This document shows, one piece after another, positions 10,966 through 52,461 of a stretch of 64,000 nucleotides of DNA. The notes under the pieces were generated by a model, which did no database searches, was not told the DNA's origin, and was given only the letters and a program-made list of their open reading frames with translations. The stretch covers positions 434,001 to 498,000 of the forward strand of contig NW_026515678.1 in NCBI RefSeq assembly GCF_025526975.1. The letters run 5' to 3'. The translations under genes and the position numbers were made by a program. Each line of letters starts with the position of its first letter. Within the stretch, counting starts at the first letter, position 1. This DNA comes from Fimicolochytrium jonesii. Its lineage: Eukaryota.

Positions 10966-11660
10966 TCACGCCTTGGGTTTGCGGTACCGGTCTATATCTC
11001 CCTGGCAGTTGGTCGATCCGCAGCAGCACTGGACAGCAATCGACAGGGTTTTAGATCTTGTGACTCAGCCCGTACCCAAACACTCATGTCCCTTCGCCTC
11101 GCCCTCACCTTGAAGTTCCATGCCGGATCCCAATAATCTGTATCATCCCCCAGGTTATACAATAATCTCCTCATCCTTCTTTACGGGCCGAGTGAGGATG
11201 ATATGGAGGTTGGAAAGTTTCGCGTTTGGGTCACAGGAGTCTGAGATTAGAGGGGAAAGGAGGGGTGATTTAGAACGGGTTGTGCTGGAGTGTTGTGGGA
11301 TTAAGCAAACTTACGATTTGCGAATCGTGCGTCGGAGGTGGGGAGAAGCCTTAGCTGGGAATGAGAAAGGACGTTTAACTCCTGCATCATCTGATCTGAT
11401 ATCGTATGTCGCAAACAGATCACGGGTGACGATTGGAAGAAGCCTGATGTGCAGGCGCAACATGGGCTGGAGCATTTCTGATCGCATATCCGGAAGAACA
11501 TCATCAAGGCAAGGGCGAATGGTGCGAGAGAGGGTGAAAGTGATGGGAGGAGGAAGTTGCAGAGACTGGGTGTGGAGGGGGAGTTGTGAGAGAGGGTGAA
11601 GGTGGGGGTCTGGGCAAGGTGAGCCGCTTATGTGTATATATCAGATCTCTGGTGCGTTTG
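10966..11660 (-). pseudogene. SET-domain methyltransferase, C-terminal half (SET-C + post-SET), frameshifted
   Basis: Splicing introns 11241-11314 and 11029-11108 gives 'ARFAN|HSCDPNA...TRPVKKDEEII' then, in a shifted frame, 'YNLGDDTDYWDPAWNFK|CCCGSTNCQGDI' (NHSC motif and post-SET CxCGSxxC). In-frame TAA/frameshift near 11157. Confidence 0.75.
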
Positions 11661-11795
11661 CAGTGCTCTATTCAGTTACATTCCAAATGATATTTGAGAA
11701 TATATAGTGTTGATTAGTACAAGTTGCCTTCATCGGCGACGCCTCAGGCAGAGGTACAATGATGTGGATGGCAGATAACCACCACGGAAAATGGG
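11661..11795 (-). ncRNA. Candidate Fanzor omegaRNA scaffold (predicted guide = flank 11660-11646)
   Basis: Lies between the Fanzor stop (11813) and the element end. Three hand-foldable stem-loops on the minus strand: 11785-11764 (GTGGTGG..CCATCCAC), 11757-11717 (GTAC.TGCCT..AGGCA.GTAC), 11704-11677 (TATATTCTCAAAT..ATTTGGAATGTA). Confidence 0.5.
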
Positions 11796-11812
11796 ATGGG
11801 GTGAAATCTAGA

Positions 11813-12694
11813 CTACCCGTTACGGGAGAATGCGTCTGGTCTGCGGCCATTGCCAAACACCACCGAACGCACAATCGAGAGGAAATTCTTGGTGCTCAGG
11901 ACGTCCCGATTGTACACTCTCATCCATAGTCGTAGTGGTCGTCTTCCAGGAATCTCAAATGCTGTCCAGTCTTGGTTGATACATTCGGGGTTGGGGCAAC
12001 CCACCAATCCATGGACGTATTCCATTCTTCCCTTTCTAGCTTGCCATGGCCGAGATGACAGCTGCTGTCGGATGTTTTTCTTCACACGGCCGTGGCAGTC
12101 TGGGCACACAGAAGAAGTTCGATACTCATCTAGCAAGTAGCACGGAATGCTGTTCCTTGCAAAGAGTGTGCGGAATCTGATTTCCATGATGAGTTAGCAT
12201 ATTATAATACATAGTAGGTACCACGAATGATGGTCACTCACCCCTTGGTCTTCGATGACTCCTGAAAGCGCATGGTTTTTCCAGCGTCGCTCCAATCACC
12301 CAAGATGACCGAAAGATGCTTTCCATACAGGCGTTGCATGTTCTTGATGAGCTTGCTCTCAGACTTTTGCCGCAGTGAGAACGCCTTGAACCTGCGAGCA
12401 ACGTGAATCTCATCCTGGTAAAACTCATCCAGGGCGGGATCTGGGATATGGATGGATGTCAGCCCATGTGTTACTAAATTTGAAGACAGCGCATAATACA
12501 TCATACCTGCATGTATGTGATCCACAATGAACGCTGAGAACGCCTCGATGTTCATGCTCTTGTGCGATGGAATATGTGATTCCATCTCAGCGATGCCAGC
12601 ATTGATCTTTCGCTCTCGCATGTCTCTTTGAAAGTACCGAGACTTTGTCTCGACCGCCCGTTGATTGGATGTGTATCTGGTATGGGGTGGTGCA
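11813..12694 (-). pseudogene. Fanzor1 (TnpB-like RuvC nuclease), C-terminal part
   Basis: Splicing introns 12441-12506 and 12177-12241 gives 'RYTSNQRAVETKSRYF...RRFKAFSLRQKSESKLIKNM...VILGDWS...KGFRTLF...LLDEYRTSSVCPDC...VHGLVGCPNPEC...YNRDVLSTKNF'. This includes the Fanzor-type relocated RuvC-II Glu (DEYRTS), the zinc-finger Cys pairs and RuvC-III NRD. Confidence 0.9.
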
Positions 12695-13245
12695 TGTTAC
12701 GGACGACGCGCCCATACCGTAAGCTTACCTACTGACGGCCGCCAATGTCAACCGCCAAATGTCAAACGCCAATGTCAATGTCAATGTCAGTGTCAATGTC
12801 AGTGTCAATGTCAGTGTCAATGTCAATGTCAATGCCACTCCCCCTCTCTCATCTCATTTCGCCAATCCTCCCGCAATATCGCCACTCCTCCTCTCTCCTC
12901 TCATTTCGCAAATCCCCCCTCGGCTTCTCCACACCCCCCACTACTTCCCCATAGCCAGCAGCTGTAGCAATGCTCTCTACGCTCGCCACCCACGCTCTAG
13001 GAGCATAGCTGGCGCCCCCCCAGTCCCCTCTTGTTGTTGTTGTTCTCTGATCTGCTGGGTTGCCTATCTATAAATAGCCGGCCTCTCTTCGTCCATTCCC
13101 TTCCTCCCCAGCAGTTCAAAACCAGTTCTTCTCATCTCCTGTTCTAGTCCTTGCTTCTTGTTTCGCCAATACAATCTCTTGTCGCCTATCACACTCGCCC
13201 TGTCTTCTCTACTTCGCTTCCGCCCCCGTTGTCGAGATCATAACA
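12695..13245 (+). repeat. 5' LTR of outer retrotransposon (contains (TCAATG/TCAGTG)n array)
   Basis: Starts TGTTACGGACGACGCG, ends TCATAACA, contains TATAAATA; direct repeat of 24092-24628. Confidence 0.95.
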
Positions 13246-13926
13246 GTTTGATCTGCTCCAACACTGCGAAGTTCAGAACCTGTCCAGCCCTGCATCCGAC
13301 AAACCTTTTTCGCCATGTCCCAACCCGAGTCCGTACCTTTCACCGCCAAGCAATGGAACGATATGTGCCAAGCCATCGCCGCCTTGCAAACCCAAAACGC
13401 CAACTTGCAGGCCAACCTAGCGCAAGCCCAAGCCGACGCACAAGCTGCCCAGAGCATCGCCGCCCAGGTTCAAGCCGATATGTACACCCGTCCCCAAGTC
13501 GCCAACCCTGCTCTGGAGCCAAGAATCAGCTCGCCCGAGAAGTTTGATGGTACCCGCAGCAAATTCCGTGGGTGGTTGAACAACATCCGGTTGATGTTTG
13601 CTCTCCAGCCCAACCGCTACCCCAGCGACATCATCAAGATCCAAACTATTGGCACCTACCTCACCGGCACTGCGCAAGCCTGGATAGCGCCCCTAGTCGA
13701 ACGCCAAGATCACAGCCTTCAGGACTTCGATAGTTTTATCAGTCAGATGCAATCGGTCTTCGGAGACAGCGACAGGGTCCGCACCTCTGAAAACAAGCTC
13801 CAGAACCTTCGCCAAACCCGTGCAGCAACCAAGTACGTCGCTGAGTTCCGCCAGCTACAATGCAATGTCTCCTGGAACGCCCAGGCCCTGATTGCTACCT
13901 TCCGCCGTGGCCTCAAAGAAGACGTC

Positions 13927-14457
13927 TGTTATGGACGACGCGTCCATACCATGCGCTTACCTCATGACAGCATCCCAACAGTCAGTCAATGTCAATTCCC
14001 TGTCAAAACCTGACATCTGCCAAACCTCGCAGCCGCACGCAGCTGCGCTACCCCACACCTGCCACTGCCTTCATTTCTCCACGCAGCCGCACGTAGCCAC
14101 ACCTCCCAACACTCGGCGCTTACAAACCCTTCTCCATACTTCCCCACGTACCCGCCCACAGCCTCAGCGTAGCCACCCCATCCCCGGTCTTCTGTTTCTA
14201 TGCTTCCCCACCCTTGGCGCTTCTCTTGGCTTCCCTCTCATTCCGTACCCTTCTGCTTCCCCACGCTTCCCCAGCCTTCCCAGAAAAACATAAATAGCCG
14301 CCTCCCCTGAGCTCCCCACTTCCTGATCCCCCCAGCAGATCAACACCAGTTCTTCCTAGTCTTGTTCTAGTTCTTGTTTCGGTCTGAATACCATTACCTG
14401 TCAACAACCTGCACCACAAGTCGCCTCTATTTCCATCGGCTCCGCCCATTCATAACA
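13927..14457 (+). repeat. 5' LTR of inner retrotransposon
   Basis: TGTTATGG...TCATAACA, near-identical to 19275-19805. Confidence 0.97.
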
Positions 14458-14469
14458 GTTTGATCTGCT
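14458..14469 (+). promoter_or_regulatory. Primer-binding site, self-priming type
   Basis: TTGATCTGCT (14460-14469) is the reverse complement of AGCAGATCAA (14334-14343), ~40 nt downstream of the LTR TATA-like box. No TGG tRNA-type PBS. The same PBS occurs at 13246. Confidence 0.7.
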
Positions 14470-14508
14470 CAACAACCCCCAGCCGCTGTACCTCCACGCC
14501 AAATCACC

Positions 14509-15435
14509 ATGTCCGACGCCCTTCCCCTCACGGCCGAAGCCTGGCAAGCCATGTGCAATGCGATTGACGAACTTCGAGCACAGAATACCACCCTACAAGC
14601 CGAACTAGCGCAAACCCAGACCACTGCCCCTGCCACCCACGCCCCCGAACCCAAAATCAGTCTCCCAGACAAATTTGATGGCACCCGAAGCAAGTTCCGT
14701 GGGTTCCTCAACCAGATCCGGCTCATGTTTGCCCTCCAACCCAGGCGCTACCCCAACGATCAGACCAAGATACGAACTATTGGCACCTACCTCACTGGCA
14801 CCGCCCAGGCCTGGCTGGCGCCCCTTGTCGAACAAGACCATCATTCCCTTACGAACCTGGATGATTTCATCCAGCAAATGCAAGCAGTCTTTGGAGACAG
14901 CGACAGGATCCGCACATCCGAAAACAAGCTCCAGAACCTTCAACAAACCCGTGCAGCAACAGAGTATGTAGCTGAATTTCGACAGCTGCAATGCGATGTG
15001 TCGTGGAATGACCAGGCATTGATTGCCACCTTCCGTCGCGGCCTCAAAGAAGACGTCAAGGACTTAGTGCTCACGATGCCCCCTACCGCCTCAATCGACA
15101 CTGTGATGGAACAGGCCATCCAATGTGACAACCGATTGTTTGAGCGCCGTCTAGAGCGAAGCAGGAACCGACAGTCATATGTGCCAGTTACCACTAGCCC
15201 CACCCTCATGAGCCCCGACAACCGCCCAGACGACCCTATGATCATTGACGCTGCTCGTCCGCGAGGACCCCTCACGCCGCTAGAGCGCCAACACCGCATC
15301 ACAAACAAACTTTGCCTCTACTCTGGTAAACCCGGCAACATAGCCAAACTCTGCCCGAACAAGATACGCACGGCGAATGTCGCGGTTAAGGAACCTGCAC
15401 CCATCCAGGATTTTGCCCAAGTCCAGCTGCAGTAA
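14509..15435 (+). CDS. gag: Gag of inner retrotransposon
   Basis: Intact 308-aa ORF with PDKFDG motif; the zinc knuckle is degenerate (CLYSGKPGNIAKLC). Confidence 0.92.
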   Translation: MSDALPLTAEAWQAMCNAIDELRAQNTTLQAELAQTQTTAPATHAPEPKISLPDKFDGTRSKFRGFLNQIRLMFALQPRRYPNDQTKIRTIGTYLTGTAQAWLAPLVEQDHHSLTNLDDFIQQMQAVFGDSDRIRTSENKLQNLQQTRAATEYVAEFRQLQCDVSWNDQALIATFRRGLKEDVKDLVLTMPPTASIDTVMEQAIQCDNRLFERRLERSRNRQSYVPVTTSPTLMSPDNRPDDPMIIDAARPRGPLTPLERQHRITNKLCLYSGKPGNIAKLCPNKIRTANVAVKEPAPIQDFAQVQLQ

Positions 15436-18400
15436 AGGCCGAGCAGCTGGGCAACACCTGTCCTGGGCCTTCTCACCACGCAAGTACTGCCAAGGGAGAA
15501 GCCACAAAACCTTGCTCCGATCCTGGCATCTCCAGCAACACCCTTCTCCTGACCACCAACAATGTCAATCTCCTATCTGAGATACCCTCACCCATGCGGA
15601 CTTTGGGCCCATCCTCACCATTCGAGTACCCTGTTACCCTGCAGATATCGGCCCAGCGAGCTCCAGTTCAGCTTTCAGCACTACTCGACACCGGTGCGAT
15701 GTCGTGCTTCATCGACGAAAGTTATGCCCGCAAGCACCGCATCCCACTTGTCAAGAAGGAGGACCCCATTGCGCTTGAACTGGTTGACGGACGTCCCAGC
15801 CATGCGGGCTCCATTACCCATCACACCCAACCTTTGGGCATGTGGGTCAACGACCATTTTGAGGAGGTGGTATTCCATGTGACATGTTCCCCGCATGCGC
15901 CAATCATCCTGGGGCTTCCCTGGTTTGAGCTCCATGATGTGGAGCTACACTGGAAGACTCGCACTCTTTGCGTCCGCTGCCATTGCGGTTTTGGACAATA
16001 CGCCTCCTGGGATGCCCTGCCAACAGAACCTAGCCCGAAGCCCTCAAAAACCCCTGAACCTCTGATCCGTATCCATCAAGACGAGATTTCAGTCTCCCTA
16101 GCCCAGACACCCAACACACTGGACCCAGCACCCACACCGATCCACGTATCGTTTATCAGCGCCCCAGCTTTCCGTGTGGCGGCAAGGCATGACCAGGCAT
16201 TCATTGCCTACGCCAATCCGACCAAGTCAGATTCCCAAGCCCTGGCGACCACTCCTCCAAAAGATCCGAAGGCCATCATTCCTGAAGAATACCAAGATTT
16301 TGCGGACGTCTTCGCCAAGAAGAACGCGGATACCCTCCCAGAGCACCGACCCTACGACTGCCCCATCGACTTAGAAGAGGGCAAACAGCCACCGTTCGGC
16401 CCGATCTATAGTCTCAGCGAGCCTGAAATGCAGGCACTCTGTGACTACCTTGAAGAGAACCTAGCTAAGGGGTTCATCAAGCACTCCAAGTCTCCCGCCG
16501 GTGCCCCAGTCCTCTTTGTCAAGAAAAAGGACGGTTCCCTCCGTCTGTGCGTCGACTATCGTGGACTCAACAATATCACCATCAAGAATCGCTATCCCTT
16601 GCCCTTGATTAACAGCATCATGGATCGTCTTCGAGGGGCACGCCGGCTCACCAAGATTGACCTCCGGGGAGCCTGCAACCTTCTTCGGATCCGGCCAGGG
16701 GATGAATGGAAGACAGCGTTCCGATGTCGCTACGGCCTATTCAAGTATAATGTCATACCGTTTGGGCACACCAATGCCCCTGGAGTATTCCAACACCTCG
16801 TGAACGACATATTCCGTGACATTCTCGACGTTTTTGTTGTGGTCTACCTTGACGACAGTCTGATCTTCTCAAAAAACCCAGAAGACCACCCCAACCACGT
16901 CCAAGAGGTGCTCTCACGACTCCGCCAGCACGGGCTGTATGCGAAACCGGAAAAATGCGAATTCAACCGTGACTCTGTTGAGTTCCTGGGGTTTATCATC
17001 TCTCAGCAAGGCATTTCCATGGACCCAAAGAAGACGGCTGCCATTACCAAATGGGAACCCCCGACGAATGTCAAAGGCATCCAACGCTTCCTTGGTTTTG
17101 CCAACTTCTACCGGCGATTCATCAAAGGGTACTCTGCGATCGTTGCACCCCTGACCTCGCTCACTCGCAAAGACTTGCCATTCAAATGGACCCACGCTGC
17201 ACACCTAGCTTTTGAAACCCTCAAGAAAGCCTTCACCTCCGCACCTATCCTGACTCACCCCGACCCTGACAAGCCCTTCATTGTCGAATCCGATGCCTCC
17301 GACTTTGCCCTTGGCGCCGTCCTCCTTCAACCCGATGACACAGATCAACTCCACCCCGTGGCCTTTCACTCCCGCAAATTTACTCCTGAGGAAATCAACT
17401 ATGAGATCTACGACAAGGAACTCCTGGCTATCCAAGACTCATTTGCTCAATGGCGACACCACCTCATTGGTGCCCGCCACAAGGTCATCGTTTACTGTGA
17501 CCACAAGAACCTCCAGTACTTCATGACTACCCGTACCCTCAACCGCCGCCAATCCCGCTGGTCAATCTTCTTTGCTGATTTTGACTTTGTCATCACATAC
17601 CGCCCTGGTACCCAGCAACACCAAGCTGACGCCCTCTCTCGTCGCTCTGAATACGAGCTAAGGGAGGGGGAAGAAGCATTCCGCTCCCAGGAAACCACGA
17701 TCCTCACCCCTGACCATCTCCGCCTGGCCGCCACTTATCTGACCCCACTGGACTCCTCGCTCCTTGACCAAATCAAAGCTGCCCTGGCATCCGATGTGTT
17801 TGCGCAAACCATCCGGCGACAGCTTAGGGCCCCCATTGCCCAGCAATCTCAAGAAGACCAAGAACGGATAAAGCGATTCTCCGAGGAAAATGGGGTTCTG
17901 CTGTACGACAACCTTGTCTACGTCCCCACCAACAAGCTCCGTGCTGAGATCTGCCGGGACATGCATGACACGCGTTTGGCAGGACACTACGGCATGTCAA
18001 AGACCCTGGAGCTCATCTCACGCAACTACTGGTGGCCTAGCCAGTGGCGTTTTGTCAAGTCCTACATCAGGTCCTGCGACGTATGTGCTCAAGCCAAGAC
18101 CAGCAGACACAAGCCCTACGGTCTCCTCTAACCCCTGCAGGTCCCTGACCGCCCCTGGGGGTCAATTTCCATGGACTTCATCACGGATCTACCCGCCAGT
18201 GATGGGGTTGATTCTGTGCTCGTTGTCATCTGCCGGTTCACCAAGATGGCGCACTTTGTACCGTGCAGGAAAACTGCCACCGCTGAGTCAACTGCAGATC
18301 TGATCTGGCACCATGTCATCCGGCTCCATGGACTCCCCGACGATATTGTATCTGACCGTGGCCCACAGTTCAACTCCCACTTCTGGAAACGTCTCTTCGC

Positions 18401-19262
18401 TCTCCTGGGAATCAAGGTCAACCTCTCATTGGCGTTCCATCCCCAGAGCGATGGACAAACCGAGCGGACCAATCAGATTCTTGAGCAATACCTTCGCTGC
18501 TTTTGCAACTATCAACAAGATAACTGGAAGGAACTCTTGTCTTCTGCTGAGTTCTCTTACAATAACACCATCCACTCCGCCACCCAGACAACCCCCTTCT
18601 ACGCCAACTATGGGTTCCATCCTCGATTCAGTCTGGCTTCCGCCACCACAACAGAATCCCTTAATCCTGCAGCCGAAGCTTGTGCCAACCATCTCAAGGA
18701 AATCCATGAACAGCTTGCCACTGAGCTCAAGGAGGCCCAAGGACGCATGAAGCGCTTTGCCGATGCTAAGAGGGCACCTGGCCCAGACATGAAACCCGGT
18801 GACAGTGTCTGGCTCTTACAGCGGAATCTCAAGACTCTCCGACCTTCCCAGAAACTTGATCACCGTAAGATTGGCCCCTTCACAATCACGGAGAAGATCA
18901 ACTCGGTCACATATCGCCTCAAGCTTCCCCCATCCTACAAAATTCACAACGTCTTCCATGTCTCCCTTCTTGAACCACGTTTCACCATTCCGGAGCGAAC
19001 TGAGCCAGAACCCACCCCACCAGAAGAAGTCGAAGGACAGGAGGAATGGATTGTGGAAGACATTCTTGACTCCCGTATTCGACGCACGCACCTTCAGTAC
19101 CTCATCCAGTGGCAGGGTTGGCCAAGCTCGGAGAACACATGGGAGCCAGTGGAACACCTTGCCCGATGTCAAGAGCTTGTAGCCCAGTTCCACCAAAAGT
19201 ACCCCGACAAACCCCGACCAAAGCCTGCCAACATCAAAACAACATCCGGACGCCGTGGCTAA
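15408..19262 (+). pseudogene. pol: Pol of inner retrotransposon (PR-RT-RH-IN-chromodomain), one premature stop
   Basis: The -1 frame is open from slippery site 15408 into ORF 15594. Motifs LLDTGA, YLDD, DASD, integrase core, chromodomain YLIQWQGW..NTWEP. A TAA at 18129-18131 replaces Gln in GLLQP; the frame continues into ORF 18171-19262. Confidence 0.93.
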
Positions 19263-19274
19263 AAGAGGGGGTGA

Positions 19275-19805
19275 TGTTATGGACGACGCGTCCATACCAT
19301 GCGCTTACCTCATGACAGCATCCCAACAGTCAGTCAATGTCAATTCCCTGTCAAAACCTGACATCTGCCAAACCTCGCAGCCGCACGCAGCTGCGCTACC
19401 CCACACCTGCCACTGCCTTCATTTCTCCACGCAGCCGCACGTAGCCACACCTCCCAACACTCGGAGCTTACAAACCCTTCTCCATACTTCCCCACGTACC
19501 CGCCCACAGCCTCAGCGTAGCCACCCCATCCCCAGTCTTCTGTTTCTATGCTTCCCCACCCTTGGCGCTTCTCTTGGCTTCCCTCTCATTCCGTACCCTT
19601 CTGCTTCCCCACGCTTCCCCAGCCTTCCCAGAAAAACATAAATAGCCGCCTCCCCTGAGCTCCCCACTTCCTGATCCCCCCAGCAGATCAACACCAGTTC
19701 TTCCTAGTCTTGTTCTAGTTCTTGTTTCGGTCTGAATACCATTACCTGTCAACAACCTGCACCACAAGTCGCCTCTATTTCCATCGGCTCCGCCCATTCA
19801 TAACA
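19275..19805 (+). repeat. 3' LTR of inner retrotransposon
   Basis: Direct repeat of 13927-14457, followed by TSD ACGTC. Confidence 0.97.
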
Positions 19806-20169
19806 ACGTCAAAGACCTGATGCTCACAATGCCCCCTGCGGCCACCATTGATGTGGTGATGGAGCAGGCTATCCAGTGCGATAACCGGCTGTTTGAGCGC
19901 CGCCTGGAGCAAAACAGAAGCCGCCAGACCTTCCCGGTTCCCCATACCTCGTTTACTACTACCACCACTGTCGACCACAGCGAGCCTATGCAGATTTACG
20001 CCGCTTGTCCCCGCGGCCCTCTGAGCCCTCAGGAACGCCAACGCCGCATTTCCAACAACCTCTGCCTTTACTGCGGTGGCGCGGGGCACATTGCAAAAGT
20101 CTGCCCCGTCAAGAACAAGACCACCACCCGTGCCGCCAACATTGACATCAAAGAACCCTCCACCAAACA

Positions 20170-23100
20170 GGGTTTTCCCAAAGTCCAGCCGCAGTAAAGC
20201 CCCAGCGACTGGACAACACACACCGCCCCGGGCCTCCTAACCTCGCAGCTCCTGCAACGGGAGAGGCCACCCCCCTGGTTCCCGACTCCGTTATAGCCGA
20301 CACAACCCTCCTAGCCGCTGCCCATGTCGAAAACTCCGAAATTAACCCCCGCGCCATGCTTGCGCTGGGTCCCGTCAAACCCTTCAACTACCCCGTTACC
20401 ATCATGGTATCATCCAGCCGCGCCCCGATACCTACCTCAGCCATGATCGACAACGGTGCCCTGTCCTGCTTCATCGACAGAGACTTTGCCCGCAAACACC
20501 GCATCGCCCTAGTCCCGCATCAGCGTCCACTGACGATCGAACTCGTTGACGGTCAACCCAGCTCTGCTGGGCCAATCACCCATCACACCCAACCAGTAGG
20601 CATGTGGGTCGACGACCACTTCGAAGAACTCGTCTTCCATGTCACCAAATCACCCCATGCTCCGATCCTCCTTGGACTCCCCTGGCTCCGCCTCCACGAC
20701 ATTAACCTTGACTTCAAGAACCTTTCGGTCGGTTTCCGTTGCGAATGTCAGTACCATGAATTCGCAAATTGGGACAACTCTCCAGCACCCCCGAGCCCAG
20801 CACCCGCCAGAACCCCCGAGCCCTTGATCCGCATCCCCCAGGATGAAGTTCCCGTCGACGAAACATGGTCGATTCCAGTACCCAAGGTATCTCGCTCCAG
20901 CACCCCAGAACCGGCTCCCACGCCGCTCCGAGTCTCGTTCATCTCCGCCCCAGCCTTCCGGGTCGCAGCAAGGCATGACCAGGTCTTTGCCGCCTACGTT
21001 AACCCTGCGAAACCCGATCTCCCAGCCTCGCCTAGCCCCAGTAACCCCCCGACACCCGAGAAAGACATCAAAGACTTCCTGCCCCCCGAGTATCAAGACT
21101 TCGCCAACGTTTTCGAAAAGAGAAATGCTGACACTCTCCCCGAGCACCGGCCCTACGACTGTCCAATCGATCTGGAAGAAGGCAAGCAGCCACCTTTCGG
21201 CCCGATCTACAGCCTCAGCGAACCAGAAATGAAGGCACTCTGCGAATACCTCGAAGAAAACCTCGCCAAAGGATTCATCAAACCCTCAAAGTCCCCTGCC
21301 AGTGCGCCAGTCTTATTCGTGAAGAAAAAGGACGGTTCTCTCCGCCTCTGCGTCGATTATCGAGGCCTAAACAGCATCACGGTGAAGAATCGCTACCCCC
21401 TGCTCCTGATCAACGGTATCATGGATTGTTTGCGCGGCGCCCGCCGTCTCACCAAGATCGACCTCCGCAGCGCTTAAAACCTCTTACGCATGCGCCCGGG
21501 CGATGAATGGAAAACCGCCTTCCGCTGCCGCTACGGCCTATTTGAATACAATGTCATGCGCTTTGGACTGAGCAATGCTCCTTGCGTCTTCCAGTACCTA
21601 ATGAACGACATCTTCCGCGACATTCTCGATGTGTTTGTTGTCGTCTACCTCGACGATATCCTGATATTCTCCAAGAACCCCGAAGATCACCCCAAACATG
21701 TCCGCAAAGTCTTGTCCCGCCTCCGACAGCATGGGTTGTACGCCAAACCAGAGAAGTGCGAATTCAACCGCGAATCCGTTGAGTTCCTAGGCTTCATCAT
21801 CTCCGAGAAAGGCATCCAGATGGACCCCAAGAAGATTGCTGCCATCACGGATTGGGAACCTCCCAAGACTGTCAAAGGCGTCCAGCGGTTCCTCGGCTTT
21901 GCCAACTTCTATCGCCGATTCATCCAGGGTTATTCCAAGATCGCTACCCCGCTCACAGCCCTGACCCGGAAAGACATCCCGTACGCCTGGACACCCGCCT
22001 GGACACCGCCTTCGAGAACCTGAAGAAAGCATTCACCACCGCCCCCATCCTTGCTCACCCTGACCCAGAGAAGCCCTTTGTCGTCGAAACTGACGCCTCC
22101 GACTTCGCTCTTGGCGCAGTTCTCCTCCAAACTGACCAGGACAATCAGCTCCACCCCGTGGCCTTCCACTCTCGCAAATTCACGGCCGAAGAGATCAACT
22201 ACGAGATCTACGACAAGGAACTTCTGGCCATCCAAGACTCCTTTGCCCAGTGGCGACACCATCTCATTGGCGCCCGTCACAAGATCACCGTTTACTCCGA
22301 CCATAAAAACCTTCAGTACTTCATGACCACCCGCACCCTGAACCGCCGCCAAGCCCGCTGGTCGATATTCTTCTCGGATTTTGACTTTGTCATTACCTAT
22401 TGCCCCGGTTCCCAGCAGCACCAAGCCGATGCCCTCTCCCGACGCTCCGAACATGAGCTTAAAAAGGGGGAAGAAGCGTTCCGCTCCCAGGCAACCACAA
22501 TTTTGACTCCCGAACGCCTTCGACTCGCCGCGGCCTACCTCACACCCATGGATACCACGCTGCTTGACAAGATTAAGGCCGCCCAGGCCTCTGATCCCCT
22601 CGCTAAGACCATTCGCCAACAGCTCAAGATACCCCTCGCCCAACGAACCGAGGAAACCCAAGATCGTATCAAGCGGTTCTCAGATGAAGACGGGATCCTG
22701 CTGCACGATAACCTGGTCTATGTCCCCACCAACGAGCTCCGAGCTGAAGTCTGCCACGACAAGCACGATACTCCCCTAGCCGGCCACTTTGGGATGTCCA
22801 AGACGCTCGAACTCGCCTCCCGCAACTACTGGTGGCCCAGCCAGTGGCGCTTCGTCAAGGCCTACGTCAAGTCCTGCGATACCTGTAGCAAAGCGAAATC
22901 CAGTCGACACAAACCATACGGCCTACTCCAGCCCAACAGTATCCCTACCCGCCCTTGGGGATCTTGGTCCCTGGACTTTATCACCGGTCTGCCTCCCGTG
23001 GACGGGTACGACTCCATCCTGAACGTCAACTGTCGCCTCACCAAGATGGCCCACTTCATCGCCTGCAGCGAGTCAGAATCCGCCGAATCCACCGCCGACC

Positions 23101-24079
23101 TAGTCTTCCACAACATCATCCGTCTCCACGGCCTCCCCGACGACGTCATCTCTGACCGAGGACCCCAGTTTAAGTCCCGGTTCTGGCGTTGACTTCTCGA
23201 ACTCCTTGGGGCAAAGCCAACCTCTCCTCGGCCTTCCACCCCCAGAGCGATGGCCAGACGGAACGCACCAACCAGATCCTGGAGCAGTATCTCCGATGCT
23301 TTTGCAACCACCAACAGGACAACTGGAAACAGCTTCTGTCGTCCGCCGAGTTCGCCTACAACAACACCCACCAGTCCGCCTCCCAGACCACCCCCTTCTA
23401 CGCCAACAAGGGTCTCCACCCCCGCTTCAGTTTCGCGGCCTCTGCTACCTCCGAATCCGTCAACCCCGCCGCTGAAGCCCGCGCTAAACAAATCAGGGAA
23501 GTCCATGAACAGCTCGCCCTCGAGCTCAAGGAAGCCCAAGATCAGATGAAGCGCTACGCCGACGCTAAATGAATTCCTGGACCGGACTTCAAGCCTGGCA
23601 ACCATGTCTGGCTCCTCCGCAAAAACCTCCAGACAGCCCGGCCCTCTCAGAAACTCGACCATCGCAAGATCAGGCCATTCCCCATTGTTGAAAAAATCAA
23701 TCCCGTCGCCTACCGGCTCAAGCTCCCGCCTACGTACAAAATCCACGATGTCTTCCATGTCTCGCTCCTCGAACCCCGCTTCACTATCCCCGAACGACAC
23801 GAACCCGAACCCGCGCCCCCAGAGACCGTTGAGGGTCAAGAAGAGTGGGTTGTCGAAGCCATCCTTGACTCTCGCATCCATTGTCGTCGCCTTCAGTACT
23901 TGGTCAAATGGCAGGGCTGGCCTGACTCCGAGAACACCTGGGAGCCCGTGGAACACCTCACCCATACCGACGCACTCCTCCAGGACTTCCACAGCGCGTA
24001 CCCCAACAAACCTTCCTCTGTCCCCGTAGCACCTCCTCTGCGGCCACACCAAACTCGACGCCGCCGCCGCCGCCGCTAA
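20170..24079 (+). pseudogene. pol: Pol of outer retrotransposon, multiply disrupted
   Basis: ORF pieces 20356-21477, 21490-22023, 21852-23192, 23189-23572 and a chromodomain near 23850-23950. Stops at 21477 and 23572; frameshifts near 21990-22010 (GCCTGGACACC duplication) and 23190. Confidence 0.92.
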
Positions 24080-24091
24080 AGAGAGGGGTGA

Positions 24092-24628
24092 TGTTATGGA
24101 CGACGCGCCCATACCATAAGCTTACCTACTGACAGCCGCCAATGTCAACCGCCAAATGTCAAACGCCAATGTCAATGTCAATGTCAGTGTCAATGTCAGT
24201 GTCAATGTCAATGTCAATGCCACTCCCCCCTCTCCTCTCATTTTGCCAATCCTCTTGCAATATCGCCACTCCTCCTCTCTCCTCTCATTTTGCCAATCCC
24301 CCCTTGGCTTCTCCACACCCCCCACTGCTTCCTCATAGCCAGCAGCTCTAGCAATGCTCTCTACGCTCGCCATGCACGCTCTAGGAGCATAGCTGGCGCC
24401 CCCCAGTCCCCTCTTGTTGTTGTTGTTCTCTGATCTGCTGGGTTGCCTATCTATAAATAGCCGGCCTCTCTTCGTCCATTCCCTTCCTCCCCAGCAGATC
24501 AACACCAGTTCTTCTCATCTCCTGTTCTAGTCCTTGTTTCTTGTTTTGCCAATACAATCTCTTGTCGCCTATCACACCTGCCCTGTCTTCTCTACTTCGC
24601 TTCCGCCCACGTCGTCGAGATCATAACA
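24092..24628 (+). repeat. 3' LTR of outer retrotransposon
   Basis: Direct repeat of 12695-13245 with roughly 25 substitutions and a 12-bp shorter microsatellite (hand count). Confidence 0.95.
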
Positions 24629-25517
24629 ATCCTGGGGAGGAAACAGAGCCCATAACTCGTCGAGGACGGTCCGCTCAAGTCGTGTGAGGCGCGCAAACTC
24701 TTCTTCGGTTGGAAACTCTTCAAACGTCGCATACTTTTTAAACTGACGGACACGCTGATAATAGTGTCGCCGCTGCGCTCGGTTGACTCCAGCTCTACGG
24801 AGATGCAGTACGACTTGCTTCAAACCAAGCCTTTCATTGACGTAGCGCAGAAAAATTTGCATGAAATGCTCTTGTACGTTAACTTTGAGGTTTGTGAAGA
24901 TGCTCGTAGCCGTGTACGCTGCGGTCTGATGGCAATACTGCATGCGGATGGGGGCGAATCCGTGAACATCACAGTAGTCTTGAACCCATGGATGCAACAC
25001 TTGCACGATGACCGGATTGCCGTTGTAGCCTGGATTGTTTAGCAGCTCAAATATCACACTGATGTGCTTGTCGGTGATGTCCGGGAAATCGTGTAGAGGA
25101 TGATCAGCTGTGGTGGGGGGCAGACGTAGCAGTCAGGACATTGGTTTATGGGAAATATACTGTGTACCTCAAAAACTCACCAAGGTAGTACTTGAGAAAA
25201 AAGCTGGTGTGGCGCGCAAGGATGTGAACATTGCCGACGAATGTTGTCAGGCGCTCCCTTTGCTCCCTTTGAACTTGATTATGGATGATTCGGTGAAGCA
25301 AAACCTTGGTGCTGGCATGTGTTTGCGGGCGGGGTCGTTGAGCTGGTGGTGGTGGCGGGGGTTCATACACCAGGGATCCACCCGGTGTGCTGGGAAAACG
25401 GAAAGGGATGGGCGCGGGAAGGTTCAGTGGGCGCTGCAGACCCCTGTCCGCAGGTGAAAGCCCTCGCTGCGGCTGCTGCTGCTGCCTGTCTTCATCGCCG
25501 GAGCTCTCGCCAACCAT
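24629..25517 (-). pseudogene. Fanzor1, N-terminal part (WED-I/REC), truncated by the LTR
   Basis: Splicing intron 25108-25180 gives 'STKVLLHRII...VGNVHILARHTSFFLKYYLADHP..PDITDK...YTATSIFTNLKVNVQEHFMQIFLRYVN...LFPPQD|LTR', matching the Fanzor1 N-terminal pattern (H.F.K.Y.L; T...NN.K.HF..Y..RYVN). Start may be 25517 or 25715. Confidence 0.8.
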
Positions 25518-26075
25518 GTCTGCAATTGCTTGGGGCAAGTGGCGATGGACAGAGGGCGGGAGCTCGAATCGTGGGGTTTGCAATGGTGTGGCTGGCAGAC
25601 ATATGGGCAATTGCTGGGTAACCAGAGCAACCTTCCTCCTCTTCTGCCGTGGTGTGGTTGCTCCAGTAAATATGCACCACCACAGGTGCCCCTGGAGCGC
25701 CTGGTGTGATGACATGTTGGCTGTGCTGTGCCGAGACAGGTGTTGCAGGTGATTGCCGTGATGGCTGTGTGTCAAAGAACTTGCGTCAGTGCTGTGGTAA
25801 AGATTGCGGAGAGCAGGAAGGATTTACAGCCTGGCGCAGTCGTGGCGCAGTTGTGGCTTGTCGCCGCATCTCCAAGACCACGCTCTCCTCCTCTCAAACG
25901 AAACGTCAAGCGCTCGCAGCTCACGCAACTCACGCAGAGCACACTCTGAGCATGGAAACGTCTCGACGACAGCCCCCTCACCCCTGGCCAGCGCCCACCT
26001 CCTTCCAGCTCAAGCCCGGCAACTCACGCAGAGCAAGCGCATTTGAGCATGGAAACGTCAAGCAAGGTGAGTGGC

Positions 26076-26264
26076 CGCTGGCTGTTGACCGCCTGGGCTG
26101 GCGGTCCATATGGAGCACGACCGCCGCTTGCGGGAGGTCGACCTGCATGGGCCGTGCTGTCTGGGCGTCTCCGCTGGGTGTTGGCCGCCTGGGCTCGCGG
26201 TCCATGTTGAGCACGACCGCCGCTTGCGGGAGGTCGACCTGCATGGGCCGTGCTGCCTGAGCGT
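26076..26264. repeat. ~96-bp tandem duplication inside the Fanzor element
   Basis: 'GCCTGGGCT.GCGGTCCAT.T.GAGCACGACCGCCGCTTGCGGGAGGTCGACCTGCATGGGCCGTGCTG' occurs twice. Confidence 0.85.
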
Positions 26265-26294
26265 GTTTGCTATACGCTGATCTCACGGGCTGAG

Positions 26295-26803
26295 ATGCTA
26301 ACACCTTCCCTTCCCCCCTTCCCCTCTACCGCGCCGCAGGCCACGCCCCCGGTCGCACCCACCGCGGTCGAGGCTCTTCTGATGGGCATGGGCGAGACCT
26401 GCGCCACAGCTATCTTCGGCGACACGGTGGCCTTTTTGTATCCGCTGCTGGTAGACGCCGGCCTTGCCGCCCGGGACGCCAGCCTAGAAGACAAGGCCAA
26501 GGCGATTGGCCTTTTTTCACAGAAGATCAAGCAAGACAACCCCACCCTTGCTTTTTATATGGCCTTGATCCGTGGAACATGAGCATGGTGGAGGCCGCTG
26601 AACAGGTGCGCGCACCAAGTGGCACGGTCCTGGTGATTGCTGGCACATCGTTGGCGGAAGGGCCCACACAGACACTAGTCAAGAAACTCGCGAACAAGGT
26701 CCGGGAGGTAATCAACATCAACAGGCGACGGTTGACTGTCGACCTCGAACGTGCCTTATATATGCTGGGGGACATCGAAGACTTCTTCGGCAACCCCGAG
26801 TGA
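26295..26803 (+). pseudogene. Cargo ORF pair; second part resembles a sirtuin (SIR2) C-terminal Rossmann segment
   Basis: 'VLVIAGTSL...LVKKLANKVREVININ...LGDIEDF' resembles sirtuin GTSL / IN / GD motifs. Out of frame with upstream ORF 26250-26582. Confidence 0.4.
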
Positions 26804-27157
26804 CCCCGAGTGACCCGGGGTCATCTGAAGAAATGGCTAGTGTAGCGTGGGTAGCGTGTAGCAGTAGGTAGCGTGGCGAACGTCGTGGCAGTAGCGATGA
26901 AGCCCCTTTTGTATTACCGTGGCCTGTGGCGTGGCAGTAGCGATGAAGTCCTTCTGTTGATAAAAGTTAAGCATGGATAGCGTAGCGGGCTAGCGTGGCA
27001 TAGCAGTAGCAAGGAAAGAAAAGCTCTGTTGATAAATATGGTACAATCGCGCGGCAGCTACCCTACTTTCAGTTCCCGTATACAGCAGCTGCAAATAATA
27101 GGGCGGGGTGAGCCCGAATATACCTCTCGAAGGCGTCGCTTGACCATCGAGCGCCCC

Positions 27158-27370
27158 TCATATGGTACAGTACCTCTCTGTGTCACTCTTTACGGAAGAA
27201 ACTGTCAAAACTGTCAAAATCCTCCAACGCCTTCCCCCTGCTCTTGCTCTCTCGAGACTCAACACCATCTCCTGGACGATGCACGTACGGCAAAATAGGT
27301 GCCCGCACGGCCCGTTGTAGTTGGCAGGGTTGATCATACAGATCGGGCAAGTTGGACCGCCGTTCGGCAT
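27158..27370 (-). CDS. Small RING-finger-like cargo ORF
   Basis: CPIC..PCGHLFCRTC C3HC4-type motif; the final Cys pair is not clearly present in frame. Confidence 0.55.
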   Translation of the reverse strand: MPNGGPTCPICMINPANYNGPCGHLFCRTCIVQEMVLSLERARAGGRRWRILTVLTVSSVKSDTERYCTI

Positions 27371-28459
27371 CTTGATGGATTGGTTGGATTTGGGTGTCGG
27401 AAAGAGAGAGTGTGTTGTTGATTGGAATGGAGTTGAGAGCGGGAGTTGGACAGGCTGACTTTTGGACAGCTCGAGTCGGGGGAGTGTTGTGCAGAGACGC
27501 GAACTATCCTGTCAGTTGCTGTCATTGCGTAAGCAGACGCGTAAGCAGTCTGGTCACGGTCAGAGAGACAAAGACCCCGACGCCAGAGTCCGGAGTATAT
27601 AGACATACAACAAGTAATACATTAAGACCAGTAATGGTTCTACTCTTCATCGGCTACTTCCCAGTAATAACTCAACAAGATACGACCTCGCACGGTGGCC
27701 ATATGCGTTGTTAGTCTCAACCGGCCTCGCTCGTTGGTTCTTTTTCAACTTGTTTAATGGTGCTTTGGTGAACTTCCGCATCCTGCACGTCTTCCAAGTC
27801 CTCCACTATGCTATCGTCGTCCCTCGGGGCGTCACCATCGTCCAGACCATCTGCAGCGGCGGCCTCTGTGGTCTTTATATGCGTGTCTTTGACAGTTTTC
27901 TCGTAGGATATTCCCACCCGAATGCAACGGTACCTGCCCTGATCCATAGTACCATAATACAGGAAGGGCCGTTTTTTGAGGCTTGTGCTGCAACGGAGAT
28001 TCCTCACAGTGCCGTCAGTATCCAAGAATCCGACATGTTCGCCTGACTTGGTGCATCCGCCAAATTGTGTTGTGCGAACATCAAAGCCTGATATGAAATG
28101 AAGATGCCCACACCCCAGATCCCACCCGTAAAGAAGCAAAGAACGTAGAAGTTTCCGAGAGTTGTCACGCCTGAGGAAAAGAGGGCATATGTACGGTAAC
28201 AGTTTCAACCTCGGTGATCCCGAATGGCAGCTCTTGAAACAGGTGAAAGCTACCTATCAAGTGCGCCAACGTGACGCCCACGCTCAATGTTTAAGCTCGG
28301 AAAAGGTGATACTCCGACGGGGACCATATGTCACGAGAACCAAAAATCGTAGTCAGTGATTTTCAATACATATCATTAATTTGCATCAGGCGCTAGCTCA
28401 CCATTGCGTCCTTGAAGAATGCTGAAGTGTACGGCTAGGTTCAGATGGCAGCAGGTGTG

Positions 28460-28706
28460 CGCGGGGCGGAAACCGAAGGTCCCATCACACATAGGCGACG
28501 GTCCGTCCCTATGGCTAGCCCGTTGCCGAACGATGGGATCGCCGTTTCCCAGCTACCACTGTCCTTTATATGCCGTTGCTCGGCTGGATCACGGTTGCGT
28601 ACAGGTTATGCGCAGGGCGGAAACCGAAGGTCCCATCACACATAGGCAACGGCGTAAGATCCGTCCCTATGGCTAGCCCATTGCCGAACGATGGGATCGC
28701 CGTTGC
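28460..28706. repeat. Subterminal direct repeat (~90 bp x2)
   Basis: 'GGGCGGAAACCGAAGGTCCCATCACACATAGGC..TCCGTCCCTATGGCTAGCCC.TTGCCGAACGATGGGATCGCCGTT' at ~28463 and ~28615. Confidence 0.85.
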
Positions 28707-28762
28707 CCCGCCGCAATCGTCCACACCGGCAGAAAACTATTACTCTGCATTGTAGAGCACTG

Positions 28763-29333
28763 TCGGATGAACACGTTGATTGAAACGAGCACGCAAAACA
28801 TCCACACCCCGTCCTGGTGCAATCAACTAACCTGAGTCACCGTTCAATGATCGGACCCAGGGCGGCCTAGTTCCTTAGTGTGAAGCGGTCAAGCCCAGGG
28901 TAGGGGCGCGCGCGTAGATGCAGCGCGGTAAGGAGACCCGATCAGTTCAGAAACGGAGGAGACGGAGGTAATCCGGAAAGAGATGATCTACGACTGTGCA
29001 TGGGAGGGAGGAGAACAATGAGACAAGGCATTCCCGTGATGTTCCCACGCGTGTCGGATGGAGATTTGTGCGCAGACGGGAAGATGTTTTACCTTCACCC
29101 TCGAACCGCTCTACCACCGTTCCTGCCTTTCGAATAGCATGGCGTTGGTCTATCAGGTGAGGGATGGTGTGTATGAAGCAGGACAGTGGGAAGGTGGTGC
29201 TTACCGGGAGATCAGCATCGGCGAACAAAGCCTTCCCATAAGAGACTCCGCGGACATGGGACGCGTAGGTTTTGCGTGGAGTTGGAAGGAAACGGAGAGC
29301 CGCAAGGGGCGTTTGAATTGCTGTTGCTGCCAT
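28763..29333 (-). pseudogene. SET-domain gene, N-terminal half
   Basis: ATG 29333, 'YGKALFADADLP|intron|AGTVVERFEGE' matches the SET N-terminal GxGLFA..DI..G....Y.GE pattern. Same strand as the C-terminal half at 10966-11660; middle exons unresolved. Confidence 0.7.
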
Positions 29334-29537
29334 TCTAGGGATGGCTAGGGACTGCTAGGGATGGTTATGGTTGATGGGGGGGACGACGATGGGATTGAGA
29401 ATGTCACGGCGTCCTGCTCTGCGTCCAGCTCTGCGTCCTGCTTCCGCAGTTCAAAACGTCGTCCGCGTCTCTTTTCTCGGTTGTTCTCCACTCTCACTTA
29501 CATGAATAACCTAGTTTAGCAGCACTAATATACGACA

Positions 29538-50520: not shown

Positions 50521-52461
50521 GGGTGGGTGAAGGCCAACACCAAACGCACACAAAGCCAGCACAAAGTATCCTGTCATTACCCCACCACACACCCTCACGT
50601 CCCATCCTGTCATCCAGCGTTCTCTCCCCAAGAGATTGGTTCGCACTGAAAGGCAACCGCCCTTCGGTCCCGTTAGGAGACAGGGCCGCCCGGCGTCGTG
50701 CGGAAAGGCGAGCACCCGAGGAGGGTTGGGGCCAGGTGGTACCGTCCACGTCCATTGCTTGCCAGTCACTCAGAAACAGAGGGTCCAGCTCCGTTTGTCG
50801 TTCAGAATGAAGTCTGGCTGTTAAGGCTACCGCGGCCCTGCTTGCCCTGCATAAAGATTTGCGTGGCAGGTACAGTCCTATGGCTAGCCTCTAGACGTTC
50901 GGTCGCCCAAGCGTGCGTCCCCTTCATGTTTCCTGACAACTGTGCGATAGTGATGGGCCGGGAGCGTAGCTGGCTGAGGTGGAGCTGGAGCGTAGAGCTG
51001 GGCTTCAGCTACCGCTATGCTGGCCCGCCGACTAACGCCCGGTCGATGGAGCGCAGAGCCGGATCTTACATACGTTTGAGTATTGTAAGATTGCTGATTG
51101 ACCACCAGACAAAAACTTAGGGCAACGTGAGCAGCGACCGTTCAGTTATTGCTCAAGTCATCACTACATTCTCTCTCTGGTGGTAGTTCTACATACTGCT
51201 GTGGTGGTTATGATCTCAATGATCGGAGTCAATCCAAAATCCTCTGCCTCGAGTACCGGTATTGCGTTATGGGGGACTTTTACGGGGGAAGTGACGGACG
51301 CGGTGGAAATTGACGGGTACTGACAGGGAATGGCGGGAATAGACGGGTTCCTTCTGGGTTATTTACTGGGCCACCGTATAGTGGAATATGAAGACTCTTG
51401 CCACTTTTCCAGCCACCCGCTGCATCCTGCAACGATTGAGATTTCCCATGCTTTCGCAGAGATGCACCCATCCCGAAAAGCTCTGTGATTCCTGGAATGA
51501 ACTAGCCAGGCGGACTGAAAGGGGCAGCACAGCGCCTTCCTTTTGGTACTGTGCTAGGACGATCAGGTTGATGAAACAATCCTAGATATGCCCACCCTTT
51601 TCCTAGGACCGCTGTAACATGTGGTCTGCATTTAGCCTTCGCCGGCCCCTATATTGTATGCCCGCTTCTTTTGATTTCCGATCCTCATTCTGCTGCTCAC
51701 GTTCATAGTGCAAGCGGCGAAGAAAACGGACAGCACGGGTGGCCCGTCGTTCCCCTCCCTGGGCATGGAATTTTGGGCATGGAATTTGGCGGGAGATAGT
51801 GCCGCAGATTACATCTATGTGTACGAAATTCGGGCATAATTGGTTGGGTCAGAACACAACACGTAACAATGGAAAAAAAAAAATTACAACATGAAGGGAA
51901 CATCTCTGCAAGAGGTTCCCAACTTCCCAAGGAGTCGGGTTGGGCATGAGACCCATGGGAAGCTGACATGGGACTGAAATCTACAGCTGAGCGGTCCCTT
52001 GGGAGAACATTCCTTCGAGCTAGCGGGACAGCTTTAGGATAACTGCGCACGTCAACGTGCATCAAAGTGAACATTTTGCTTAGGCCGCTTAACCCGAAAA
52101 GCGCGTTGGAGACGGTAGGCTAAATCAACGCTCGAATCCTATTTAGCATCCAGGGTTCACTACTGCAAACGCGTCGCTCGTAAGCAAGCGGAGCCTCCCA
52201 GCAAGGGGTAAACCCCGAAAAGTTATGAGGTCCGCGACGTGCTATCCAGGCCCGGCACTGCCAAGGTCTGAAGGGATTGGCGACCCGTCCGTGCGGACAC
52301 CACCCCGCGAACACCACTATTTAAAGCCTTCTGCCCGCCTCTTACTTGTTCAACTCTCTCTCACATTCATCCTACGAATTATTGTGCAGTTTCGGCTCTC
52401 AGAACCCACAATAACTGAACAAAACATTCCTCTCACACAATTACGACCGCCATTCTCCACT

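What the first reader, a model, noticed from the sequence alone, without database searches (positions are those of the whole stretch)
11646..11812. Candidate omegaRNA ending at the element terminus, giving a testable guide and TAM
Seen: the 150 nt between the Fanzor stop and the terminal ...TAGAGCACTG fold by hand into three stem-loops, beginning near TTTTCCG. Established: TnpB/Fanzor omegaRNAs overlap the transposon 3' end and take their guide from flanking DNA, while the TAM lies just outside the other end. Inference: guide 5'-CAAACGCACCAGAGA-3' (11660-11646), TAM within 5'-TTCATCCGA-3' (28771-28763). The reconstructed empty site TCATCCGA|CAAACGCACC would then be the natural target.
Basis: partly seen in the sequence, partly recalled or inferred. 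Interest (0 to 1): 0.82.

Follow-up and report, generated by a model that had tools for sequence, protein, structure and literature searches.

The report
Fanzor guide RNA, end misplaced

Summary
The Fanzor1 gene and a likely omegaRNA scaffold are real; the proposed end, guide and TAM are not supported. Counted from 11792 on the minus strand, 75 nt end in ...CTTGTA at 11718, the length and layout of the SpuFz1 scaffold (UCC, stem-loop 1, terminal TA). Of 4 soil-metagenome contigs that reach this end, 3 (two studies) leave the window's sequence exactly at 11718 and one at 11707; none runs on to 11661. The guide would thus be 11717-11703 (CTAATCAACACTATA), not 11660-11646, and the third hairpin is flank. 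The 10-bp inverted repeat taken as the element ends has no target-site duplication, and such a pair arises in 380 of 1000 shuffles (21 of 1000 starting CAG). The two halves are joined across a Ty3 retrotransposon without duplication, with about 177 codons lost, including the first RuvC aspartate, so the reconstructed empty site is unsafe and this copy makes no active nuclease. Sister gene models in Fimicolochytrium jonesii keep all three catalytic motifs. A new member of a known kind; expression, binding and TAM are untested.

The parts
11718..11792 (-). Predicted omegaRNA scaffold, 75 nt, starting 20 nt after the Fanzor stop and ending ...CTTGTA; also the likely right end of the element
   Evidence: 3 of 4 contigs that reach the end leave the window at 11718; length, U5-C6-C7 and A75 as in SpuFz1 (PMC10432273); start set by analogy, not measured
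11764..11785 (-). Stem-loop 1: 8 pairs with one bulged U, loop UAUCU, directly after UCC
   Evidence: z -3.08; the same UCC + hairpin motif lies within 60 nt of the stop in L001, L003/L004 and L005
11718..11758 (-). Stem 2 region; several folds within 2 kcal/mol, pairing not settled
11703..11717 (-). Predicted 15-nt guide CTAATCAACACTATA (length by analogy with SpuFz1)
   Evidence: first 15 nt beyond the conserved end; 14 of 15 nt predicted unpaired with probability 0.74 or more; no second match with up to 3 mismatches in the window
11677..11704 (-).
   Evidence: z -1.77 for 11717-11661; not held by any of the 4 contigs that reach the scaffold end
11661..11670 (+).
11813..12676 (-). Fanzor1 C-terminal exons (12676-12507, 12440-12242, 12176-11813) with RuvC-II E, zinc finger and RuvC-III D
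   Evidence: PDB 8gkh SpuFz1, E 2.8e-30 and 1.3e-26; introns of 66 and 65 nt; residue map
12695..24628 (+). Nested Ty3/chromovirus-type LTR retrotransposons. Outer LTRs 12695-13245 and 24092-24628 (515 matches, 23 mismatches, 14 gaps) have no target-site duplication (GTGCA / ATCCT); inner LTRs 13927-14457 and 19275-19805 (2 mismatches) have ACGTC on both sides
24629..25715 (-). Fanzor1 N-terminal exons (25715-25181, 25107-24629), cut off by the outer LTR
   Evidence: one 73-nt intron gives gene model P0052 exactly; residues 348-524 of P0012 have no match in the window
26552..26788 (+). Fragment of a Sir2-family gene upstream of the Fanzor gene
   Evidence: 51% identical to the C-terminus of P0111, which is Pfam SIR2 at E 1.6e-17
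27158..27370 (-). Short ORF with a RING zinc finger
   Evidence: Pfam zf-RING_UBOX E 1.8e-7
28753..28762 (-).

Best explanation
The stretch 11792-11718 is likely a SpuFz1-type omegaRNA scaffold that forms the right end of a high-copy, intron-bearing Fanzor1 element, and its guide would be the next 14-15 flank bases (11717-11703), not 11660-11646. Shown here: the gene is a Fanzor1 close to SpuFz1; related contigs share the stretch and three of four part from it at 11718; the UCC + hairpin start recurs in three other Fanzor1 relatives; this copy has lost its first RuvC aspartate. Inferred from SpuFz1: a transcript running out of the element is trimmed to about 90 nt, stem-loop 1 docks on the RuvC/TNB surface, and the RNA would be loaded in trans by protein from an intact sister copy, which would cut DNA that has the TAM followed by CTAATCAACACTATA, that is the empty allele of the site where this right end first inserted. 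The TAM cannot be read from this window; by analogy with Spu-1 the empty site would read ..TA|CTAATCAAC.., but a TAM-reading residue has changed (N133 to A), so CATA cannot be assumed.
For: Boundary: 11 contigs from 4 runs lay on 11300-12690; 4 reach the scaffold end; 3 (two from X1, one from X2, different studies) have loose ends from exactly 11718, with 1-3 differing letters over 59-87 nt. The two X1 loose ends agree at 0.7, which for lengths of 76 and 24 nt works out to about 25% identity in their overlap, so unrelated flanks (my arithmetic). Layout: 75 nt from 11792 end in A at 11718; of 18 scaffold bases named in PMC10432273 10 match at the same number, 3 of them (U5, C6, C7) by my anchoring. 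Against the SPu-1 consensus end printed, four stem-1 pairs differ but stay paired (read by eye: A-U to U-A, G.U to G-C, C-G to G-C, C-G to U-A). Relatives: a UCC + hairpin + U..CG loop motif lies within 60 nt of the stop in the window and in L001, L003 (= L004) and L005; background 0.02-0.10 per 120 nt; absent in the two distant loci L007, L008. Protein: SpuFz1 numbering maps onto P0023; RNA contacts W570, W596, N604, L583, R317 are kept in the full-length sister models. 42 of 63 retrieved F. jonesii gene models reach the last exon's end motif and 21 of 63 have all three catalytic motifs by pattern.
Against: One of the 4 contigs (X1 record 1) stays aligned 11 nt further, to 11707; 7 or 8 of 11 chance matches have probability 0.008 or 0.001, so this is not easily chance and is unexplained. 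All four contigs are short (83-151 nt) pieces of soil metagenomes from organisms not shown to be the window's species. The 75-nt stretch as a whole folds only modestly (z -1.54, 12 of 200). G36 can pair with the next base C76 (11717), so a 76-nt scaffold is possible in this copy. The motif detector was loosened after a strict version found only the window, and it was written after I had seen the sequences; the 3' ends of L001, L003, L005 were picked by eye (they end YGTA). No Spu-1-like left inverted repeat is found (83 of 300 shuffles as good; no other match above 12 nt in the window). Only 10 of 18 named bases match SpuFz1.
Confidence: 0.8

Rival explanations
1. The Fanzor unit with its 75-nt scaffold rides inside a larger cut-and-paste element bounded by the 10-bp CAGTGCTCTA repeats (28762-11661), which also carries Sir2 and RING fragments; the guide would then be a fixed, internal sequence (11717-11703) shared by a subfamily.
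For: The repeat starts CAG, as many hAT ends do (recalled), and only 21 of 1000 shuffles give such a pair; a 94-103-bp direct repeat lies about 40 nt inside the left arm; X1 record 1 shares 11 nt of the guide region; X1 also holds a 143-nt piece of 27678-27820 (9 differing letters); hAT is the commonest partner of Fanzor1a/b/d in PMC10530073 (passage).
Against: No duplication of 2-12 bp at the two ends; no transposase family hit in 15 upstream frames; 3 of 4 contigs have other flanks from 11718 and record 1 parts at 11707, well short of 11661; the pair was chosen after the fact; the halves may come from different loci.
Confidence: 0.1
2. One reading: a 130-nt, three-stem scaffold ends at the terminus 11661, the guide is 11660-11646 and the TAM lies in 28771-28763.
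For: Long Fanzor1 omegaRNAs exist (GtFz1 150 nt; PMC11423790 section 5); the third hairpin is predicted; the 10-bp repeat exists.
Against: 0 of 4 contigs that reach the scaffold end go on to 11661; the nearest characterised relative has a 75-nt, two-stem scaffold ending in TA, and 11661 ends in TG; the 9-nt TAM window holds no TA; 8 of 15 bases of this guide have a predicted unpaired probability below 0.5; no duplication, and a deletion or recombination joins the halves.
Confidence: 0.04
3. The stretch is only the conserved, structured end of a decayed transposon copy and is no longer expressed or loaded as a guide.
For: The gene of this copy is split by 12 kb of retrotransposon and lacks about 177 codons; in S. 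punctatus small RNA was reported for four Fz loci of 42; the base of stem 2 is weak here.
Against: Stem-loop 1 is intact and differs from related contigs by 1-3 letters only; SpuFz1 ghost scaffolds without a gene work with the protein. This rival concerns activity of this copy, not what the stretch is.
Confidence: 0.35

Closest known systems
SpuFz1 omegaRNA and Spu-1 / SPu-1 elements of Spizellomyces punctatus (PMC10432273; PMC3627910; PDB 8gkh)
   Same: Fanzor1 protein, 46% identical over 96% of sister model P0007; 75-nt scaffold shortly after the stop (20 nt here, 14 nt in the SPu-1 consensus), UCC then stem-loop 1, end in TA, variable flank beyond; many copies; Ty3 insertions in some loci.
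   Different: Scaffold sequence is diverged with compensated stem 1; gene has at least four introns and a proline-rich N-terminal extension (SPu-1 is one 633-aa ORF); no 30-33-bp left inverted repeat found in the window; TAM contact N133 is A and R96 lies in a shortened loop; this copy is catalytically incomplete.
Ghost Spu-1 loci (PMC10432273)
   Same: A scaffold plus guide without a working nuclease gene in cis, which would need protein in trans.
   Different: Ghosts are short (about 550 nt) IR-bounded elements; this is a full gene broken by retrotransposons.
PpFz1 and GtFz1 omegaRNAs (PMC11423790, section 5)
   Same: Conserved first stem-loop of about seven pairs; free variation beyond it.
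   Different: 75 and 150 nt in all; protein more distant (9cf0, E 4.8e-10).
hAT-associated Fanzor1 (PMC10530073, passage)
   Same: Would match if the CAG-starting 10-bp repeat were a true terminus.
   Different: No target-site duplication and no transposase found here.

Membership tests
Fanzor1 (SpuFz1 clade) protein | Sequence homology to SpuFz1 over RuvC and TNB regions | tested here: met
   PDB 8gkh E 2.8e-30 and 1.3e-26; P0007 vs P0023 46% over 96%
Fanzor1 (SpuFz1 clade) protein | RuvC triad D383 / E541 / D606 in this copy | tested here: not met
   E541 and D606 present, D383 region deleted
Fanzor1 (SpuFz1 clade) protein | RuvC triad in sister copies | tested here: met
   21 of 63 retrieved models by pattern; P0007, P0080, P0095, P0105, P0107 by alignment. 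Gene models are automatic and not proof of intact genes
Fanzor1 omegaRNA | Conserved stretch just after the stop with 5' UCC and stem-loop 1 | tested here: met
Fanzor1 omegaRNA | Sharp 3' boundary followed by variable flank | tested here: met
   3 of 4 contigs part at 11718, 1 of 4 at 11707; few and short contigs
Fanzor1 omegaRNA | Covariation in the stems | tested here: inconclusive
   By eye against SPu-1 four stem-1 pairs change and stay paired; MAFFT alignments of the four scaffolds did not put the stems in register, so no pair count was run
Fanzor1 omegaRNA | Expressed as an 88-90-nt RNA, bound by the protein, guides TAM-dependent cleavage | not testable with these tools
   no RNA run listed; needs bench work
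Spu-1 / SPu-1 element | 30-33-bp terminal inverted repeats | tested here: not met
   best gapped match in 4 kb upstream equalled by 83 of 300 shuffles; none in the window
Spu-1 / SPu-1 element | Right end closes in TA | tested here: met
   11719-11718
Spu-1 / SPu-1 element | Single intronless ORF in about 2.1 kb | tested here: not met
   three whole introns and the 3' stub of a fourth
Spu-1 / SPu-1 element | CA-TA at the left end, TAM CATA | tested here: inconclusive
   left end not located; Q129, Q130, R291, Y345 mostly kept, N133 is A in all F. jonesii models that cover it in the alignment
hAT-type cut-and-paste element (features recalled) | Short terminal inverted repeats starting CAG | tested here: inconclusive
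   10-bp pair present; 21 of 1000 shuffles
hAT-type cut-and-paste element (features recalled) | 8-bp target-site duplication | tested here: not met
   3 of 8 letters match; may be lost if the halves come from different loci
hAT-type cut-and-paste element (features recalled) | hAT transposase or remnant | tested here: not met
   no such Pfam hit in 15 upstream frames

The most novel reading that the evidence does not exclude
A subfamily of these Fanzor1 units has been captured inside a cargo-carrying, CAGTGCTCTA-bounded transposon, which freezes the guide as the internal sequence CTAATCAACAC..., so that a eukaryotic Fanzor is permanently aimed at one fixed target rather than at each copy's own empty site, with an altered TAM.
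Probability: 0.08. Interest if true: 0.65.

Novelty: new member of a known kind. Interest (0 to 1): 0.3.

Why it matters
The design is published for S. punctatus, so the locus is not surprising. Its value is practical: it gives a corrected scaffold and guide for a Fanzor1 family with dozens of copies in another chytrid, with a changed TAM-reading residue (N133 to A), hence a candidate compact editor with a different target range, and a natural test of which scaffold pairs matter. In the searches made (supplement search) no paper describes a Fanzor of Fimicolochytrium; the one paper with both words has Fanzor only in its reference list. Supplements of other Fanzor surveys were not searched and may list it.

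Tried and rejected
No whole genome is held for the window, so copies could not be aligned directly. No RNA holder listed: no evidence on expression either way. No contig cover of 11300-11706 or 28790-29400: absence of cover proves nothing. Most short pieces laid on 24630-29400 (35-41 nt, under 90% alike) look like chance matches from other organisms. Exact scaffold patterns found nothing in viral contigs; a 14-nt pattern gave 121 loci, none matching beyond 19 nt. Protein-based scans of viral and prokaryotic contigs found no relative (18 and 6 candidates); a pattern from 11661-11689 found nothing in prokaryotic genomes. The metagenome scan gave 8 loci of 99 candidates: L002 and L006 end too early, L004 duplicates L003, L007 and L008 are distant, leaving three. 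No significant left-end inverted repeat in L003, L005 or L001 either (47, 85, 245 of 300 shuffles); TG|TA sites that I noticed upstream of the start codons, and TA-start sites in the window (best 12 of 30), are not above chance and were dropped. Rfam: one chance hit, E 2. The strict hairpin detector found only the window (the L001 search range there was also misplaced). A homolog search with the ORF 27720-28253 found nothing. The bacterial promoter scan does not apply to a fungus. The protein atlas did not answer. No earlier notes by sequence or genome. A Helitron 3' end for the third hairpin was considered from recall and dropped: AT-rich and not followed by CTRR at the usual distance. No structure prediction or covariance model was run.

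Full report
What is there. On the minus strand a Fanzor1 gene ends with its stop at 11813. Its last two coding stretches match SpuFz1 in the PDB (E 2.8e-30 and 1.3e-26). The closest named proteins are Fimicolochytrium jonesii gene models, 13 of the 14 hits (87-96% identical, one 68%). One 73-nt intron turns the window's N-terminal part into model P0052 exactly, and two introns of 66 and 65 nt give a C-terminal part whose printed ends read as P0073. I retrieved 63 F. jonesii models of this family; 42 of 63 reach the end motif of the last exon and 21 of 63 have all three catalytic motifs by pattern. This is a large expansion; the count is a lower bound and the models are automatic.

This copy is dead as a nuclease. 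Nested Ty3 elements fill 12695-24628. The inner pair of LTRs differs at 2 positions and has an ACGTC duplication; the outer pair (23 mismatches, 14 gaps) has none, and residues 348-524 of sister P0012 are missing from the window, including the equivalent of D383. A plain insertion does not do that; a deletion or a recombination between LTR elements does (inference). Model P0068, on a different contig, is encoded residue for residue (391 of 391) by the window's left half from 26648 inward, whereas 11 other models are 79-88% identical over the N-part. So the left half has a recent twin elsewhere, and the two halves need not share an insertion site.

Where the scaffold ends. In PMC10432273 (text parts 1-3 of 8 read) the SpuFz1 omegaRNA is a 75-nt scaffold plus a 14-15-nt flank-derived guide, with U5, C6, C7 at the start and A75 last. 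Setting the window's UCC to 5-7 puts base 1 at 11792 and base 75 on the A at 11718, the end of ...CTTGTA; SPu-1 also closes in TA (PMC3627910, passages and supplement hits). Of 18 scaffold bases named in the paper 10 match at the same number, 3 by this anchoring, which is modest. The independent test is: 11 contigs from 4 soil or straw metagenome runs lie on 11300-12690, 4 of them reach the scaffold end, and 3 (X1 twice, X2 once; two studies) leave the window at exactly 11718 with different loose ends. The fourth leaves at 11707 and also departs at 11756 on its other side; it may be a left-end repeat, a ghost or a related subfamily, and its 11 extra bases are not easily chance (0.001-0.008). 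None goes on to 11661. If the printed loose letters abut the joint, the base after TTGTA is T in X2, not the window's C, so the G36-C76 pair that folding offers here is not conserved. These are short contigs of organisms not shown to be the same species.

Structure. The whole 152 nt fold at z -1.38 and the 75 nt at z -1.54. Stem-loop 1 (11785-11764) is the clear part (z -3.08), in line with PMC11423790 section 5, where stem-loop 1 is conserved and the rest is not. Against the SPu-1 consensus four of its pairs differ yet stay paired (by eye). Three usable relatives from metagenomes (L001, L003, L005; 40-56% identical in the last exon) have UCC, a hairpin and a U..CG loop within 60 nt of the stop, against a background of 0.02-0.10 per 120 nt; the detector was loosened after a strict version hit only the window, and their single hairpins are individually weak (z -0.9 to -1.9). 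Each has a YGTA 47-82 nt after the start that I read as the end, without copy evidence. The third hairpin (11704-11677) lies beyond the conserved end.

Guide and TAM. It has no second match in the window at up to 3 mismatches. No Spu-1-like left repeat is found, nor in the three relatives, so the left end and the TAM stay unknown. Of SpuFz1's TAM contacts, Q129, Q130, R291 and Y345 are mostly kept, N133 is A in the F. jonesii models and R96 falls in a shortened loop: the TAM may differ from CATA.

Mechanism and rivals. Most likely (0.8) a standard Fanzor1 omegaRNA at the element's right end, usable only in trans by protein from intact sisters and aimed at the empty allele; expression, loading and cutting are inferred from SpuFz1. 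Whether this copy is still expressed is open (0.35 that it is not). A larger CAG-ended carrier with Sir2 and RING fragments that fixes the guide remains possible (0.1): the subterminal repeat, record 1, a 143-nt X1 piece at 27678-27820 and the reported hAT association (PMC10530073, passages) speak for it, three variable flanks and the missing duplication against.

Prior art. Intron-bearing Fanzors, Ty3-interrupted loci and gene-less guide loci are all in print. PMC10711439 (passages) added nothing on this locus type. Searches found no paper on a Fimicolochytrium Fanzor; PMC12247965 (passages) names the species for a viral capsid gene only; 9 supplements of PMC10432273 do not name it (one file unreadable); two supplements of PMC3627910 and those of other surveys were not searched. 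Earlier scan notes concern other genomes and were not used as support.

Verdict. Observation partly confirmed, interpretation partly supported: right kind of element, wrong end, guide and TAM. New member of a known kind; interest 0.3.

Noticed in passing
L005:2810-2856: A Fanzor1 relative whose apparent scaffold is only about 47 nt (UCC, stem-loop 1, short CCGG stem, end TTGTA; z -2.13), like the engineered minimal SpuFz1 scaffold; its 3' end is picked by eye. The C-terminus of model P0014 appears to read through a similar stretch.
   Followed up: partly
L001:3190-3228: Here the Fanzor ORF runs 35 nt or more into the scaffold, so stem-loop 1 overlaps the last codons.
   Followed up: partly
window 11707-11756 (X1 record 1): A contig shares only the 3' half of the scaffold plus 11 flank bases and has unrelated sequence on both sides; possibly a left-end inverted repeat or a ghost of this family.
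   Followed up: partly
window 24800-26648: Identical in translation to gene model P0068 on a different contig, including the upstream region: recent duplication, recombination or an assembly artefact.
   Followed up: partly
window 27072-27161 (-): A 30-codon frame, MRGARWSSDAFERYIRAHP..., resembling the C-terminal motif of DIRS/Crypton tyrosine recombinases (recalled); no Pfam hit. Model P0043 joins a tyrosine recombinase to a Fanzor piece.
   Followed up: partly
   Followed up: partly
P0074, P0098: Two sister gene models splice from the Fanzor last exon into different host genes (CHZ histone chaperone, CUE domain); in the window the right flank also looks promoter-like (TATATA then CT-rich, 11640-11520). 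Insertion just upstream of genes may be favoured.
   Followed up: no
window 12695-24628: Chromodomain-bearing Ty3 element nested in a related one (about 72% alike internally); S. punctatus Fanzor loci are also often hit by Ty3.
   Followed up: partly
window 52225-58900: Large coiled-coil-like ORFs with tandem units of 75, 135, 165, 219 and 253-259 nt, no clear Pfam family.
   Followed up: no
window 27468-27505 and 59173-59211: A 39-nt stretch (92% alike) occurs inverted in both places; a 68-nt tandem with TAACCCTAA-like units follows at 59479-59634.
   Followed up: no
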